From: Lysobacterales bacterium
GTDB taxonomy: Bacteria; Pseudomonadota; Gammaproteobacteria; Xanthomonadales; Xanthomonadaceae
Direction: 5' to 3'
Assembly (NCBI GenBank): GCA_965279425.1
Contig: OZ257239.1
Span: forward strand, 2,835,541-2,899,540
Length of the DNA stretch: 64,000 bases
Both the position numbers and the translations under genes were made by a program. The notes under the pieces were generated by a model. The model was not told the DNA's origin. It ran no database searches and saw only the letters and a program-made list of their open reading frames with translations. Shown here one piece after another: positions 13,737 through 17,850 of this stretch (the stretch's first letter is position 1; each line of letters opens with the position of its first letter).

Positions 13737-14786
13737 TCACTCGATATCTGGCTTCGGTTCTTCCGGCGCATGCCAGATGCGCGTCCAGACGCCAGCGAGC
13801 GCTTTGCTCAAACCATCCTCGGCGACAGGCGCGCGATAGGCGCTCTGAAGCTGTCGCGGTGGAATCGCACGCCATGCCCCGCCCTCGCGCTCGGCGACTA
13901 CGAAGCTGAAGTTGTAGTCCGGTTCCAGCCCCATGCGCAGATCGCTGAGGACGAGTTCGTTTCCAACGATCTGCGTGCGCATGAAGCCATGGTTGAACCA
14001 TGCGAGCTGTTCCACTGCTTCGATGCCGCGGGCCTGTCCCAATGCCTGCGTATCGGAGCGATAGCCCTTGAAATGCATCGGGCCGTGGTCGGCGACCAGC
14101 GATCTGTCGCCGATGACATAGCCCTGCGGGGTCATGGCGACCACGCGCCACAGCAAGGTGTTGAAAGGCATGGGTACGGAGAACCGTGGCGCGTCGCCCA
14201 ACCCGAGCGCAGCGAGATCGCGGCCGGCCTGTCGATCCACCATGCCCTTGGCGGCCAGTGACCAGCCCAGATAGGCGGTGCTCAATATCAGGCCCGCGAC
14301 CAACGCGCGCTGTGCCAGCGGGCGCGCCTGCGCAAACCACGCCACCACACAGGCCACCAGCAGCCAGAGGGTGTACAGCGGATCGATGATGAAGACACTG
14401 GACCACATCACCGGCGGCGTGCGCAGCGGCCACAGCAACTGGGTGCCGTAGACGGTGAATGCATCGAGCAGCGGATGCGTCACCAGGGCCAATTGGATGG
14501 CCCAGAACCAGCGCGTCGGCGATTCGGCCACGCGTTTGCCGCGACGTTTGAACAGCCACCAGATCAGCCAGGCTACCAGCGGCAACACGAACAACGAATG
14601 GCTGAGGCTGCGGTGCAACGTCATCAGCGACACCGGGTTATCGGTGAAGAGCATGATCGGCAGCGAGTCGAGGTCGGGCAAGGTGCCCAGTGCCGCGCCT
14701 GCCAGCAAGGCGGCGCGACGATGACGGGCGGGTGCGATGGCGGCGACTATCGCGCCGCCGAGAACGATCTGGGAAATGGAATCCAT
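13737..14786 (-). CDS. Metal-dependent hydrolase, YdjM-like membrane protein
   Basis: MDSISQ, LPDLD, HRSLSH, HPLLDAFTVYG motifs. Confidence 0.88.
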   Translation of the reverse strand: MDSISQIVLGGAIVAAIAPARHRRAALLAGAALGTLPDLDSLPIMLFTDNPVSLMTLHRSLSHSLFVLPLVAWLIWWLFKRRGKRVAESPTRWFWAIQLALVTHPLLDAFTVYGTQLLWPLRTPPVMWSSVFIIDPLYTLWLLVACVVAWFAQARPLAQRALVAGLILSTAYLGWSLAAKGMVDRQAGRDLAALGLGDAPRFSVPMPFNTLLWRVVAMTPQGYVIGDRSLVADHGPMHFKGYRSDTQALGQARGIEAVEQLAWFNHGFMRTQIVGNELVLSDLRMGLEPDYNFSFVVAEREGGAWRAIPPRQLQSAYRAPVAEDGLSKALAGVWTRIWHAPEEPKPDIE

Positions 14787-14821
14787 GCCGGAATGCTAAC
14801 AGCCCGCACTTGCAAGACACG

Positions 14822-14892
14822 TGTAGGAGCGACGCAAGTCGCGAAACCGTATCCTGCAGCGTGTGCGATTCGCGACTCGCGTCGCTCCTACA
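14822..14892. repeat. Inverted REP pair (GTAGGAGCGAC type)
   Basis: TGTAGGAGCGACGCAAGTCGCGA ... TCGCGACTCGCGTCGCTCCTACA. Confidence 0.85.
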
Positions 14893-14901
14893 GGTATTAT
14901 G

Positions 14902-15711
14902 CTAGGCCGCTTTGGGCAGTTCCTGCAACGTCAGACGCAAGCGCGCGGGCAGCGATTGCAGCACTTCTCCGGTATGGGAAAGCAGGCACAGGCTGCCGTC
15001 CGCTTCTTCGCTGAGCGCGGTCAGGCTTTCCACCCAGTCGCCATCGTTGGCGTAGACCAGCCCGTCGCGCTGGATCAGCGCTGCCCGATGGATATGCCCG
15101 CAGATGATGCCGTCCAGGCCGCGGCGTTTGGCATCGTCCAGGCCTGCTTGCACATAGCGCTCGATGTAACGTTCCGCCGCGCCGCTCTGTTGCTTCAGGT
15201 ATTCGGACAGCGACCAGTAACGCAGTCCCGCGCGCTGCCGCAATCCATTGAGCAGCTTGTTGCCGGTGAGAATGCGGTAGTACAGCCAGTCGCCGAAACG
15301 CTCCTGCAGCCCACCGAAATGGGTGACCGCATCGTAGTCGTCGCCATGGGTCACCAGCAGCCGGCGACCGTCGGCGGTCACGTGGATCGCACGACGACGC
15401 ACCTGCATCGCCGGTAGCATCAGACCGCAGAACCGGCGAATGGGCCGGTCGTGATTGCCGGGGATGTAGATCAATTCGGTACCGCGCCGGCGCAGCGCAT
15501 GCAACGCTTCGACCACACGGTTGTGCGCCCCGTTCCAGTGCGCACGCCGTTGCGCCATCCACCACAGGTCCACGATATCGCCGACTAGGTACAGGCGCGC
15601 GCAGTTGAGTCCTTCCAGGAACCCGGCGAACTCGGCCGCATGGCAATGCTTGGAACCCAGGTGCACATCGGACACGAACACCGCACACCGTCTTGCCATA
15701 CTCGGGCTCAT
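14902..15711 (-). CDS. Metallophosphoesterase of LpxH-like/PlcP-like type
   Basis: SDVHLG, LVGDIVD, PGNHD, THGD, CGHIH; ATGA overlap with the upstream gene. Confidence 0.85.
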   Translation of the reverse strand: MSPSMARRCAVFVSDVHLGSKHCHAAEFAGFLEGLNCARLYLVGDIVDLWWMAQRRAHWNGAHNRVVEALHALRRRGTELIYIPGNHDRPIRRFCGLMLPAMQVRRRAIHVTADGRRLLVTHGDDYDAVTHFGGLQERFGDWLYYRILTGNKLLNGLRQRAGLRYWSLSEYLKQQSGAAERYIERYVQAGLDDAKRRGLDGIICGHIHRAALIQRDGLVYANDGDWVESLTALSEEADGSLCLLSHTGEVLQSLPARLRLTLQELPKAA

Positions 15712-17429
15712 GCCGTGACCCCGCTTTCGACCGCGGCCACCTGCAAGTATCTGGAGCGCTTCCGTGGCCTGATCCGGTGCAGGTCCACTTCGATCAGTCC
15801 GTCGATGGAATCGCTGAAATCCGGGTCCACGCCGAAAGCCAGGAAGCGGGCGCCGCCGGGTTCGCACAGTTCGGTGTATTGCTTGTACAGCATCGGAATG
15901 GTTGCCCCCAGGCTGTCCAGATTCGTCTTGAGCACGCGCAAGGCGGTGTCGGCATCCATGCCGCCGAATGAAGGCGGCGCATCGCGATAGAGAAAGGGAT
16001 TGCGCGGCACCGCGCCATCGGCGCCATCGCTGTAGTAGCGCGCGTAATAGGCCACGATCTGCTCGCGTGCACCAAGGGGCAATGCCGCGCTCAGAGATAC
16101 CGCGCCATACAGATAGCGCACGTTGGGGTGCCGGCCCAGATAGGCGCCGATGCCCTGCCACAGATAGTCGATGCTGCGGCTACCCCAGTAGTCGGGCGCC
16201 ACGAAACTGCGGCCCAGTTCCATGCCTTCGGCCAGGCGCGGCACCATCGCGTCGGCGTAGCGGAACAGCGACGCGGTATACAGCCCTTTCAAGCCCTGTG
16301 CGGCCAGCATTGGCGCACCGCGCGCGATTCGATAGGCGCCTGCGATGCGGCCAGCGCTTTCGTCCCAGAGCACGATGTGCTCGTAATGCAGGTCGTAGGC
16401 GTCGATATCCAGCGCAAGGCCGGTACCCTCACCCACCGCACGGAAGGTCAGTTCGCGCAGGCGACCGATCTCGTGCAGCAACGGTGACCCGTGCGAAAGG
16501 CGACCGACGCAGATGCGCTTCCCATCGGTGGTGCTGCCCAGCACCTCCAGCGACCGCAAGGCCTGCCGCACGGCTTGCGGATCGGCCGCTTCCGCCAAGG
16601 GTACGGGCGCAGTACTTGGCGCTTGCATGGCCCTGCGCCGGCCCAGCGAATACAGCGCCTTGCGGATGCCGGCGATCATGACCTCGGGATCGGCGGCATG
16701 ATCGGGCGTCATCAGCGGCCCGACGCGCAGTGCGATGCGGCGGCCGCTGCGCTTGAACATCTCGCGTGCGAGCAATGCCGTGCCGATGGGCTTGGAGAGC
16801 GCGGAGGCGCCGTAGAACAGCGCCGAATTACGCGCTTCGATGCGCACCGGCAGCACAGGCGCACCGCTGTCGCGGGAGAAACGCAGGAACCCACGGCGCC
16901 AGCGCGTATCGGTAATGCCGCGCGAACCCAGCCGCGACACTTCGCCGGCCGGAAACACGATGACGCATTGTTCCTGCTGCAGCGCCCGGTCAATGGCCGC
17001 CAGGCTATCGGGGCTGGGTTTGCCGCCCAGGATGCGCACCGGCAACAACAGCTCCCGCAGTCCTTCCACCTGTTCCAGCAGATCGTTGGCCACGATGCGC
17101 ACGTCGCGGCGGACGCTGCCTACCAGGTCCAGCAGTGCCAGCGCGTCCAGCGCGCCGGAAGGATGGTTTGCCACTATCAGTAACTTGCCCTTGGCGGGAA
17201 TGCGCGCCCGGTCCTGTGCATCGACGGTGTAACGCAGCCCGAGGAACTGCATGGCCGCTTCGACCAGCGCGAACCCCCTGAGGTCGGCGTGACGCTCAAG
17301 AAAACCGTAGACATGTTCCAACCGGGACCAGTGCGCCAGTCCACGCAGCAGCGGCCGCGACACCAGGGCGCGTCTTCCGCGGAACCATTGCGGATAGCGG
17401 TCCGCCAACTGTCGTTCGAGAAGTTCCAT
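15708..17429 (-). CDS. Bifunctional acyltransferase-GNAT protein (OlsF-like ornithine lipid synthase)
   Basis: N-terminal PlsC motifs ANHPSGALD and FPAGEVS; C-terminal LRELTFRAVGEG..DAYD..ELGRSFV OlsB-like domain. Confidence 0.8.
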   Translation of the reverse strand: MELLERQLADRYPQWFRGRRALVSRPLLRGLAHWSRLEHVYGFLERHADLRGFALVEAAMQFLGLRYTVDAQDRARIPAKGKLLIVANHPSGALDALALLDLVGSVRRDVRIVANDLLEQVEGLRELLLPVRILGGKPSPDSLAAIDRALQQEQCVIVFPAGEVSRLGSRGITDTRWRRGFLRFSRDSGAPVLPVRIEARNSALFYGASALSKPIGTALLAREMFKRSGRRIALRVGPLMTPDHAADPEVMIAGIRKALYSLGRRRAMQAPSTAPVPLAEAADPQAVRQALRSLEVLGSTTDGKRICVGRLSHGSPLLHEIGRLRELTFRAVGEGTGLALDIDAYDLHYEHIVLWDESAGRIAGAYRIARGAPMLAAQGLKGLYTASLFRYADAMVPRLAEGMELGRSFVAPDYWGSRSIDYLWQGIGAYLGRHPNVRYLYGAVSLSAALPLGAREQIVAYYARYYSDGADGAVPRNPFLYRDAPPSFGGMDADTALRVLKTNLDSLGATIPMLYKQYTELCEPGGARFLAFGVDPDFSDSIDGLIEVDLHRIRPRKRSRYLQVAAVESGVTA

Positions 17430-17507
17430 GCCGGTCGCCCGCAGCCCGCCCCCGGCGGGTTTGGCCGGCAGCCTGCCGGTTGCAGGCGTCAGCCCGGTTG
17501 CGGTTTT

Positions 17508-17525
17508 GCGGCAGGACGGTGACAG
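17508..17525 (-). promoter_or_regulatory. Putative Pho box
   Basis: Minus strand CTGTCAC-CGTC-CTGCCGC, about 80 nt upstream of the OlsF-like start; second half-site degenerate. Confidence 0.4.
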
Positions 17526-17602
17526 CGGCGGTTGGTTGCCCGAAACGCGACGAGAGCTCCGCCGCAGCAAAGACCAGCAGTGCAACAAGTCGAACGAAGC
17601 AT

Positions 17603-17688
17603 CCCCCCTTTGAAAAAGGGGGGTTAGGGCAGATTTGCTCTCAGCGCAAAGAGCAAATCCCCCTCAATCCCCCTTTTCCAAAGGGGGG
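17603..17688. repeat. Three-hairpin intergenic palindromic element
   Basis: CCCCCCTTT-GAA-AAAGGGGGG; GATTTGCTCT..AGAGCAAATC; CCCCCTTTT-CC-AAAGGGGGG. Confidence 0.75.
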
Positions 17689-17850
17689 AAGACAAGCAGG
17701 CGCCTCCCTTTGCGATGAGGTACACACAATGCTGCTGTGCTCCATGACTTAACCTAAATGCCATCCTGAACGCGGCACAATGCAGCCCCCGCCCGGGCCG
17801 TGTATCATGCGCGCCCATCTTTTCATCCCGATCAAAGGATATAAGCCGCG

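What the first reader, a model, noticed from the sequence alone, without database searches (positions are those of the whole stretch)
14902..17525. PlcP-like phosphoesterase coupled to an OlsF-like synthase with a possible Pho box
Seen: an acyltransferase-GNAT fusion overlaps (ATGA) a metallophosphoesterase, and a CTGTCAC-N4-CTGCCGC site lies upstream. Known: OlsF is a bifunctional ornithine-lipid synthase with this domain order. PlcP is an LpxH-like phospholipase C used in phosphate-starvation lipid remodelling and is easily annotated as UDP-2,3-diacylglucosamine diphosphatase. Inference: a two-gene cassette that removes phospholipids and makes phosphorus-free aminolipids. PlcP is more usually described next to glycolipid or betaine-lipid genes.
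Basis: partly seen in the sequence, partly recalled or inferred. Interest (0 to 1): 0.6.

Follow-up and report, generated by a model that had tools for sequence, protein, structure and literature searches.

The report
Phosphate-starvation olsF–plcP lipid-swap operon
A Pseudoxanthomonas operon behind a phosphate-starvation promoter pairs an ornithine-lipid synthase with a phospholipase that databases mislabel as the lipid A enzyme LpxH; both parts are known, but this pairing, conserved across Lysobacter, Stenotrophomonas and relatives, is not in the papers I could search.

Summary
All three observations hold. On the minus strand, olsF (15708-17429; NCBIfam OlsF equivalog, 695 bits against a cut-off of 620) overlaps by ATGA a 269-aa LpxH-like metallophosphoesterase (14902-15711). 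The CTGTCAC-N4-CTGCCGC site (17508-17525) is half of a four-repeat tandem Pho box (17486-17525).

The phosphoesterase is not LpxH: it scores 48 bits against a cut-off of 134, and the true lpxH lies elsewhere in the genome. It nests in a family whose genes sit beside agt, btaA, dgkA and phoR, which is the published PlcP context.

A matrix built only from pstS promoters of 29 relatives ranks the olsF site 4th of 7.9 million genome positions. In 29 of 30 related loci the best site lies 79-99 bp before olsF.

olsF directly followed by plcP occurs in 41 of 67 OlsF-bearing family genomes and 69 of 80 named loci. In other Gammaproteobacteria the two genes are linked in other arrangements.

Best reading: a PhoB-activated bicistronic unit that makes ornithine lipid while degrading phospholipids. 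This is a new arrangement of known parts. Enzyme activities and PhoB binding are untested, and I could not align to a validated PlcP. The scan has noted related lipid-remodelling modules in other genomes.

The parts
17486..17525 (-). Tandem Pho boxes: four 7-mer direct repeats at an 11-bp period (CTGTCAC cgtc CTGCCGC aaaa CCGCAAC cggg CTGACGC).
   Evidence: Sequence read. Same architecture as the pstS promoters of the family. Rank 4 of 7.9 million with the pstS-derived matrix. Conserved at -79..-99 in 29 of 30 family loci and in named genera.
17470..17475 (-). Candidate -10 element CAGGCT, 10 bp after the last repeat and about 40 nt before the olsF ATG.
   Evidence: Conserved at 60-80% or more per position as gcgCAgGCT in the alignment of 30 olsF upstream regions. 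It keeps A2 and T6 of the -10 hexamer. No sigma-70 consensus promoter was found by the simple scan, as expected for an activator-dependent promoter. Its function is inferred.
15708..17429 (-). olsF, a bifunctional ornithine-lipid synthase (573 aa): N-terminal O-acyltransferase domain and C-terminal GNAT N-acyltransferase domain.
   Evidence: NF052615 equivalog, 695 bits against cut-off 620. Pfam PF19576/PF01553 plus PF13444.
15708..15711 (-). ATGA overlap of the olsF stop and the plcP start, implying translational coupling.
   Evidence: Small overlaps or short gaps recur in 69 named relatives; the estimated gap is -24 to +123 bp and is -3 in many loci.
14902..15711 (-). PlcP-family metallophosphoesterase (269 aa), LpxH-like fold with a helical lid, no signal peptide.
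   Evidence: Pfam Metallophos. Far below the LpxH cut-offs, with the true lpxH elsewhere. Metal ligands D15, H17, D45, N86, H122, H206 and H208 are intact. AlphaFold model pLDDT 92; the top 24 PDB matches listed are all LpxH. Nested in the agt/btaA/dgkA/phoR-linked family.
14809..14905 (.). Imperfect 37-nt inverted repeat of the GTAGGAGCGACGC REP family, lying against the plcP stop. Likely 3' end or stabiliser of the transcript.
   Evidence: The core word occurs 88 times in the genome. Its role is inferred.

Best explanation
This is a two-gene operon of the phosphate-starvation (Pho) regulon. When phosphate is scarce, phosphorylated PhoB binds the four 7-mer repeats at 17486-17525, which stand where a -35 element would be. 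It then recruits RNA polymerase to the weak -10 (CAGGCT). One mRNA carries olsF and the phosphoesterase gene, and the ATGA overlap couples their translation. OlsF acylates ornithine twice to make the phosphorus-free ornithine lipid. The second protein is a cytoplasmic, Mn-type, LpxH-fold enzyme of the PlcP family. It cuts the phosphorylated head group off PE or PG, which frees phosphorus and leaves diacylglycerol. The diacylglycerol is not used by OlsF. It is probably passed to the GT4 glycosyltransferase (agt-PAP2 pair beside phoBR-ppk-ppx) or recycled by DgkA, both encoded elsewhere in the genome. Shown here: gene identities at family level, the overlap, conservation of the gene pair, and the Pho-box match with its conservation. 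Inferred: PhoB binding, co-transcription, both enzyme activities and the fate of the diacylglycerol.
For: OlsF passes its curated equivalog model.

Phosphoesterase is not LpxH:
- It scores 48 bits against the LpxH cut-off of 134.
- The real lpxH scores 318 bits at G000:2526856-2527596.
- It is 27% identical to the genome's own LpxH, against a median of 42% to 48 agt- or btaA-linked family members; 47 of those 48 fall below E 1e-40.
- About two dozen residues that are at least 90% conserved across the family differ from the own LpxH and are present here.

Phosphoesterase belongs to the PlcP family:
- Neighbours of 107 family loci in Gammaproteobacteria are GT4 agt (47; 35 directly downstream), dgkA (16), OlsF-like (13), PAP2 (7), BtaA/DUF3419 (5) and PhoR (5).
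- In the tree the window's protein lies inside this family, with LpxH far outside.
- The predicted fold is LpxH-like with a helical lid.

Pho regulation:
- The pstS-derived matrix ranks the site 4th in the genome.
- In 29 of 30 family loci the best site in 4.7 kb, on either strand, lies at -79..-99 of olsF.
- Where olsF has been lost, the boxes remain in front of the phosphoesterase gene.

Gene pair:
- olsF directly followed by the gene occurs in 41 of 67 OlsF-bearing family genomes and in 69 of 80 named loci.
- Elsewhere in the class the two genes are linked in tandem, divergent and plcP-agt-olsF forms in about 12 families. The tree forces at least 7 separate gains or losses of the link.

Precedent: olsF has a Pho box in Serratia proteamaculans and depends on PhoBR in Vibrio cholerae (PMC12971839, PMC12186959). 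plcP is Pho-regulated in several bacteria (PMC4796936, PMC8528852, PMC13691135).
Against: - No experimentally validated PlcP sequence could be obtained through the tools, so membership rests on context-labelled relatives, signature residues and identity levels.
- The olsF-linked proteins of this family form a clade on a long stem (1.7 substitutions per site). That leaves room for a shift in substrate.
- Ornithine-lipid synthesis does not consume diacylglycerol, so the pairing is regulatory or stoichiometric, not a substrate-product chain.
- The -10 element is weak and no transcript data could be obtained.
- In a few relatives (Xanthomonas sp. NCPPB 1128, X. bonasiae, and genomes G010 and G074) the boxes score below zero.
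- The 40-bp matrix misses the genome's own three-repeat phoB promoter, so it is not a complete detector of PhoB sites.
Confidence: 0.8

Rival explanations
1. The phosphoesterase is a Pho-regulated lipid phosphodiesterase or pyrophosphatase with a substrate other than bulk PE/PG. Candidates are CDP-diacylglycerol (which would shut off phospholipid synthesis), lysophospholipids or phosphatidic acid. It would be a PlcP relative by descent with a shifted role in the olsF operon.
For: The olsF-linked clade sits on a long stem branch. It carries a few clade-specific changes at positions conserved in other family members, notably E187 to V. LpxH, the nearest solved fold, cleaves a pyrophosphate bond in a nucleotide-linked lipid. 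OlsF does not need diacylglycerol.
Against: Only 5 conserved positions differ from the rest of the family, and all metal ligands and family signature residues are kept. Each genome of the family has one copy only, either this clade or the ordinary type. The window's genome has an agt-PAP2 pair and dgkA that need a source of diacylglycerol.
Confidence: 0.12
2. The phosphoesterase is a second UDP-2,3-diacylglucosamine hydrolase of lipid A synthesis, as public records annotate it.
For: Public names are uniformly 'UDP-2,3-diacylglucosamine diphosphatase/LpxH'. The nearest solved structures are LpxH.
Against: It scores 48 and 38 bits against curated LpxH cut-offs of 134 and 190. A full-scoring lpxH exists elsewhere in the genome. 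It is 27% identical to that LpxH. Its relatives sit beside agt, btaA, dgkA and phoR and behind Pho boxes.
Confidence: 0.03
3. The fusion enzyme makes an aminolipid other than ornithine lipid (lysine, glutamine or glycine lipid); the rest of the model stands.
For: It is only 40-46% identical to the best-scoring OlsF genes of other Gammaproteobacteria. It also matches the glycine-lipid GlsA and GlsB models weakly. Head-group choice cannot be read from the sequence with these tools.
Against: It passes the equivalog cut-off for OlsF (695 against 620), whereas the GlsA and GlsB scores (129 and 122 bits) are far below their cut-offs of 260 and 300.
Confidence: 0.08
4. The two genes are neighbours through inherited synteny only. 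The Pho boxes control olsF, and the phosphoesterase is expressed separately and has an unrelated role.
For: The whole block metK / olsF / phosphoesterase / ydjM-like gene is syntenic across the order, so adjacency within the family could be simple inheritance.
Against: The genes overlap by ATGA with no room for a promoter. Linkage recurs in other orientations in unrelated families. Where olsF is lost, the boxes are kept in front of the phosphoesterase gene.
Confidence: 0.04

Closest known systems
PlcP, the phosphate-starvation phospholipase C (S. meliloti SMc00171; Phaeobacter MED193_17359; P. aeruginosa PA3219; B. cenocepacia BCAL2364)
   Same: Both are LpxH-like metallophosphoesterases about 270 aa long and without a signal peptide, distinct from the cell's true LpxH and placed behind a Pho box. 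Identity to agt-linked family members (median 42%) is close to the 46-51% reported between validated PlcPs (PMC8528852, PMC9239053).
   Different: Sebastian et al. 2016 describe six plcP contexts: upstream of btaAB, of agt or of other glycosyltransferases, or standing alone (PMC4796936). In Burkholderia the operon is plcP-agt-dagK (PMC13691135). Here the gene is the second gene of an olsF operon, agt is 1.5 Mb away, and the clade has a long stem branch. Activity is untested.
OlsF of Serratia proteamaculans and Vibrio cholerae VC0489
   Same: Same two-domain bifunctional synthase, passing the same curated model. A Pho box precedes the gene (S. proteamaculans), and its product depends on PhoBR (V. 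cholerae) (PMC12971839, PMC12186959).
   Different: The ten highest-scoring OlsF loci sampled in the class have no PlcP-family gene within 1.5 kb. The 2026 ornithine-lipid review never uses the word PlcP. The window's promoter has two tandem boxes instead of one.
LpxH (UDP-2,3-diacylglucosamine hydrolase; PDB 5K8K, 5B49, 6PH9)
   Same: Same fold, same dimetal site, and a helical lid that holds acyl chains in LpxH.
   Different: About 20% identity to solved LpxH chains and 27% to the genome's own LpxH. It fails both curated LpxH models. It is not the genome's lipid A enzyme.
E. coli-type pstS promoter with tandem Pho boxes
   Same: Four 7-mers related to CTGTCAT at an 11-bp period upstream of a -10 element. 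The family's pstS promoters have the same architecture.
   Different: Repeats 2 to 4 are GC-shifted (CTGnCGC, CCGCCAY, CTGTCGC). The -10 is CAGGCT rather than the TATGnAAT seen at pstS.

Membership tests
OlsF (bifunctional ornithine lipid synthase) | Score above the curated equivalog cut-off of NCBIfam NF052615 | tested here: met
   695 bits against a cut-off of 620, covering model positions 4-570 of 570.
OlsF (bifunctional ornithine lipid synthase) | N-terminal PlsC-type O-acyltransferase domain fused to a C-terminal OlsB-like GNAT N-acyltransferase domain | tested here: met
   PF19576/PF01553 at residues 38-238 and PF13444 at 324-425.
OlsF (bifunctional ornithine lipid synthase) | Forms ornithine lipid when expressed; the lipid is absent from a mutant | not testable with these tools
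   Needs lipidomics.
PlcP (Pho-regulated phospholipase C of the LpxH-like clade) | Calcineurin-type metallophosphoesterase with all dimetal ligands | tested here: met
   D15, H17, D45, N86, H122, H206 and H208 are invariant in an alignment of 84 sequences and align to the LpxH motifs.
PlcP (Pho-regulated phospholipase C of the LpxH-like clade) | Separate from LpxH: fails the LpxH models, and a true LpxH (or LpxI) is present elsewhere | tested here: met
   48 bits against 134 and 38 against 190. lpxH at G000:2526856-2527596 scores 318 bits.
PlcP (Pho-regulated phospholipase C of the LpxH-like clade) | BLASTP E < 1e-40 to a validated PlcP (criterion of Sebastian et al. 2016, PMC4796936) | not testable with these tools
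   No tool returned a validated PlcP sequence. As a proxy, 47 of 48 agt- or btaA-linked family members match below 1e-40, with a median of 42% identity (small database).
PlcP (Pho-regulated phospholipase C of the LpxH-like clade) | Phylogenetic placement with PlcP and apart from LpxH | tested here: met
   Nested among 105 proteins from agt, btaA, dgkA and phoR contexts, with the own LpxH as a distant outgroup. About two dozen family-specific conserved residues differ from LpxH. Validated anchor sequences are missing from the tree.
PlcP (Pho-regulated phospholipase C of the LpxH-like clade) | Pho box upstream of the gene or its operon | tested here: met
   The boxes are retained directly upstream where olsF is absent.
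PlcP (Pho-regulated phospholipase C of the LpxH-like clade) | Adjacent gene for a diacylglycerol-using lipid synthase (agt, btaAB). This is typical but not obligatory: the published types 4 and 6 lack it. | tested here: not met
   The flanking genes are olsF and a ydjM-like gene. An agt-like GT4 plus PAP2 lies at G000:1322568-1324251 and dgkA at 957166-957489.
PlcP (Pho-regulated phospholipase C of the LpxH-like clade) | Mn-dependent release of diacylglycerol from PE, PG or PC | not testable with these tools
   Needs an enzyme assay.
LpxH | Score above the curated cut-offs of NF003743 and TIGR01854 | tested here: not met
   48.4 against 134 and 37.7 against 190 bits.
PhoB binding site (Pho box) | Direct 7-mer repeats related to CTGTCAT spaced 4 bp apart, matching the organism's own pstS site | tested here: met
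   (rank 4 of 7.9 million).
PhoB binding site (Pho box) | Conserved in position and sequence in orthologous promoters | tested here: met
   29 of 30 family loci; alignment footprint; named genera.
PhoB binding site (Pho box) | Bound by PhoB, with phoB-dependent induction | not testable with these tools
Needs EMSA or a reporter.

The most novel reading that the evidence does not exclude
The repeated, independent joining of plcP to olsF reflects a mechanistic coupling beyond shared regulation. The link needs at least 7 gains or losses on the tree and occurs in three gene orders. In Lysobacterales there is also a long-branch PlcP clade that is the second gene of the olsF operon in most genomes that carry it. 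Possible couplings are one-for-one replacement of PE by ornithine lipid through a physical or kinetic link between the two enzymes, recycling of acyl chains from degraded phospholipid into ornithine lipid, or a shifted substrate for the operon-borne enzyme.
Probability: 0.15. Interest if true: 0.6.

Novelty: new variant of a known kind. Interest (0 to 1): 0.42.

Why it matters
Replacing phospholipids with phosphorus-free lipids is a widespread answer to phosphate scarcity, and it changes how bacteria respond to cationic peptides and last-resort antibiotics. Published PlcP systems link the phospholipase to glycolipid or betaine-lipid synthases. This locus shows a lineage-wide link to an aminolipid synthase under one tandem-Pho-box promoter. 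The lineage includes Stenotrophomonas maltophilia, Lysobacter, Luteimonas and Pseudoxanthomonas.

It gives three practical results:
- A correction for hundreds of records that call this gene lpxH.
- A compact two-gene target for testing how phospholipid breakdown and aminolipid synthesis are balanced.
- A family-specific Pho-box matrix.

It does not reveal a new kind of mechanism.

Tried and rejected
- **Validated PlcP anchors.** The listing of cluster members, the protein atlas and the homologue search returned only 'LpxH'-type names and no characterised organism. The papers that define PlcP biochemically (PMC2806695, PMC6052262) are not held. I therefore labelled the family by gene context instead.
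- **Consensus searches.** The simple promoter/terminator scan found nothing useful. The exact E. coli consensus CTGTCAY-N4-CTGTCAY has no hit in the genome, which is why a family-specific matrix was built.
- **Limit of the matrix.** The 40-bp matrix does not detect the genome's own phoB promoter, which has three repeats.
- **Gene calling.** My first greedy ORF caller lost the phosphoesterase gene in 34 loci because longer spurious frames displaced it. I fixed this by seeding with BLAST-identified ORFs.
- **Rejected reading: second LpxH.** See the rivals.
- **Rejected reading: the ydjM-like gene is a functional third member.** It follows the pair in 47 of 80 named loci. It is not a recurrent neighbour of the family outside this order, and a REP hairpin separates it here.
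Full report
**Anatomy.** The finding's coordinates are exact. On the minus strand an ORF runs from the ATG at 17429 to the TGA at 15710-15708. A second ORF runs from the ATG at 15711-15709 to the stop at 14904-14902. The two therefore share the four bases ATGA.

The first protein (573 aa) has a PlsC-type acyltransferase domain and then an Acetyltransf_5 GNAT domain. It scores 695 bits on the NCBIfam equivalog model for the bifunctional ornithine lipid synthase OlsF, whose cut-off is 620.

The second protein (269 aa) is a calcineurin-type metallophosphoesterase. Its best named matches are the two LpxH models, but at 48 and 38 bits against cut-offs of 134 and 190.

Upstream lies metK on the other strand. 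Downstream, after a 115-bp gap holding a REP-type hairpin, lies a ydjM-like membrane protein gene.

Close homologues and named loci place the genome in Pseudoxanthomonas, nearest to P. sacheonensis.

**The phosphoesterase is not LpxH.** The same genome has a gene that scores 318 bits on the LpxH model at G000:2526856-2527596. The window's gene is the only other hit. The two proteins are 27% identical.

Public records nevertheless name the window's protein and its relatives UDP-2,3-diacylglucosamine diphosphatase. All dimetal ligands are intact: D15, H17, D45, N86, H122, H206 and H208.

An AlphaFold model (pLDDT 92) gives the LpxH fold with a helical insertion at residues 134-196, which corresponds to the acyl-chain-holding lid of LpxH. 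The top 24 PDB matches listed are all LpxH structures, at TM about 0.5. There is no signal peptide; the catalytic DxH motif begins at residue 15.

**Which family it belongs to.** An all-against-one HMMER search found 536 clusters (at the 50% identity level) matching at E < 1e-30.

In 401 sampled genomes of the class, 111 carry one copy of this subfamily at E < 1e-20. These tallies include four unpublished genomes (G158, G260, G414, G426), which I did not fetch and on which no claim depends.

I fetched 106 of these loci, called genes, clustered the neighbours and named the clusters with Pfam. The recurrent neighbours are:
- a GT4 glycosyltransferase, in 47 of 107 loci and directly downstream on the same strand in 35;
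- DgkA, in 16;
- an OlsF-like protein, in 13;
- a PAP2 phosphatase, in 7;
- BtaA (DUF3419), in 5;
- PhoR, in 5.

plcP-agt, plcP-btaAB and plcP-agt-dagK are the published contexts of PlcP, the phosphate-starvation phospholipase C (PMC4796936; PMC13691135; PMC8528852).

In a maximum-likelihood tree the window's protein lies inside this family, and its own LpxH is a very distant outgroup. It shares about two dozen residues that are at least 90% conserved in the family and differ in LpxH. Its median identity to 48 agt- or btaA-linked members is 42%, close to the 46-51% reported between validated PlcPs.

I could not obtain a validated PlcP sequence through any tool. The direct comparison is therefore missing, and membership rests on these proxies.

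**The Pho box.** The genome's own pstS promoter reads CTGTCAT-ATTT-CTGCCGC-ATTC-GAGACAT-ATCG-CTGTCAC, with the same four-repeat architecture and an identical second repeat.

For an independent test I took the pstS promoters of 29 other genomes of the family. They align without gaps over the 40 bp, and I built a matrix from them.
- In the window's genome the matrix puts pstS first and the olsF site fourth of 7.9 million positions, at 15.4 bits.
- In 29 of 30 related olsF loci the best site in the whole 4.7 kb, on either strand, lies 79-99 bp before the olsF start on the sense strand, at scores mostly between 10 and 28 bits.
- The alignment of these upstream regions shows the footprint cTGTCAy-N4-CtGncgC-N4-cCGCcAy-N4-cTGTCGC, then 9-10 bp, then CAGGCT. 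Elsewhere the regions are not conserved.
- Named species show the same, including Stenotrophomonas maltophilia, Lysobacter antibioticus, Luteimonas, Thermomonas and Arenimonas.
- In species that have lost olsF (P. daejeonensis, P. dokdonensis, Luteimonas cucumeris and some Stenotrophomonas) the same boxes remain between metK and the phosphoesterase gene.

**How general the pairing is.** In 121 sampled genomes of the family, 67 have OlsF and 60 have the phosphoesterase.
- In 41 genomes olsF is directly followed by the phosphoesterase gene.
- In 3 more the two are adjacent in another arrangement.
- In 11 both are present but apart.
- 12 have OlsF only.
- 5 have the phosphoesterase only.

Of 80 named loci found with the phosphoesterase, 69 have olsF immediately upstream.

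Within the family there are two kinds of the protein. The olsF-linked clade is 67-100% identical to the window's protein. An ordinary type is 41-45% identical. The two were never found in the same genome.

Outside the family, 31 of 53 OlsF-bearing genomes of the class also carry the phosphoesterase, against 80 of 348 without OlsF. In 14 genomes, counting the window's own and one family member, the genes lie within 4 kb. The arrangements are olsF-plcP, divergent plcP/olsF, plcP-agt-olsF and olsF-plcP-x-agt. On the tree the OlsF-linked proteins are scattered, and strongly supported branches force at least 7 changes.

The ten highest-scoring OlsF loci sampled in the class, which score well above the window's own OlsF on the curated model, have no such neighbour.

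**The rest of the system.** The genome also has an agt-like GT4 gene followed by a PAP2 gene, directly downstream of phoB-phoR and two genes whose sizes fit ppk and ppx (not checked). A weaker Pho-like site stands before agt (rank 109). There is a dgkA but no btaA. Diacylglycerol released by the phosphoesterase thus has plausible sinks. OlsF itself does not use it.

**Mechanism and status.** Under phosphate limitation PhoB activates a bicistronic olsF-plcP transcript. OlsF builds ornithine lipid while PlcP removes phosphorylated head groups from phospholipids. Agt and DgkA handle the diacylglycerol.

This is supported at the level of family assignment, gene order and regulatory-site conservation. 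It is inferred for binding, transcription and catalysis.

The rivals are given with their probabilities: a shifted substrate for the long-branch clade, a second LpxH, a different aminolipid, and mere synteny.

**Novelty.** Each part is known. olsF has a Pho box in Serratia and is PhoBR-dependent in Vibrio. PlcP is a Pho-regulon enzyme.

The searchable literature lists six plcP contexts, none with olsF. Four papers contain both words and none describes the pairing; I read the relevant passages of two and judged the other two from title and abstract. The 2026 ornithine-lipid review never mentions PlcP. Searches combining these genes with Stenotrophomonas, Xanthomonas or Lysobacter returned nothing relevant among the papers listed.

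The scan itself has noted related phosphate-starvation lipid modules in other genomes, one of them a GT4 plus OlsF-like gene facing a PlcP-like gene.

I therefore class this as a new variant (gene arrangement) of a known kind of system. It has a well-supported regulatory site and yields a useful correction of annotation.

Noticed in passing
window 14809-14905; also G000:1324300-1324380: A REP-type palindrome with the core GTAGGAGCGACGC closes the olsF-plcP unit. The same element precedes the agt-like gene near phoBR. The core word occurs 88 times in the genome.
   Followed up: partly
window 17602-17689: A 40-nt-arm inverted repeat (CCCCCCTTTGAAAAAGGGGGG...) lies between metK and the Pho boxes. 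The CCCCCTTT..AAA.GGGGG core occurs 18 times in the genome.
   Followed up: no
window 13737-14786 (-): A YdjM-family inner-membrane protein gene (PF04307) follows the operon. It does so, on the same strand, in 47 of 80 named relatives. It is not a recurrent neighbour of PlcP outside this order, so this is probably local synteny.
   Followed up: partly
G000:C1:1322568-1330270 (L170): A run of genes on one strand: phoB, phoR, two genes whose sizes fit ppk and ppx (not checked), a REP element, an agt-like GT4 and a PAP2. The GT4 is 51% identical to a PlcP-linked Agt elsewhere. A four-repeat Pho-like site before it ranks 109th of 7.9 million.
   Followed up: partly
G000:C1:2586355-2586394, 2118686-2118736, 2654990-2655029: Other top hits of the pstS-derived matrix. 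Rank 2 stands before an inorganic pyrophosphatase gene. Ranks 3 and 5 form a five-repeat site beside ORFs without a Pfam match. Rank 8 stands at the start of a TonB-dependent receptor gene with a CarboxypepD_reg domain. These are candidate Pho regulon members.
   Followed up: partly
L232, L236, L241, L249, L259: In Pseudoxanthomonas daejeonensis, P. dokdonensis, Luteimonas cucumeris and some Stenotrophomonas, olsF is missing. The phosphoesterase gene then follows the metK-side Pho boxes directly.
   Followed up: partly
L224, L234, L025, L026: In Xanthomonas sp. NCPPB 1128, X. bonasiae and two 5-Mb genomes of one genus the olsF-plcP pair is kept, but the Pho boxes have decayed to -5 to -8 bits. 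This may mean phosphate control was lost there.
   Followed up: no
G099:C80:6064-6894: The phosphoesterase gene matches in two pieces (query residues 8-132 and 136-256). It is probably a frameshifted pseudogene, in a genome without a detected OlsF.
   Followed up: no
G102:C1 and G076:C1: Two family genomes hold both olsF and the phosphoesterase gene far apart on one contig. G102 carries the olsF-linked type, so the operon has been broken up at least once.
   Followed up: no
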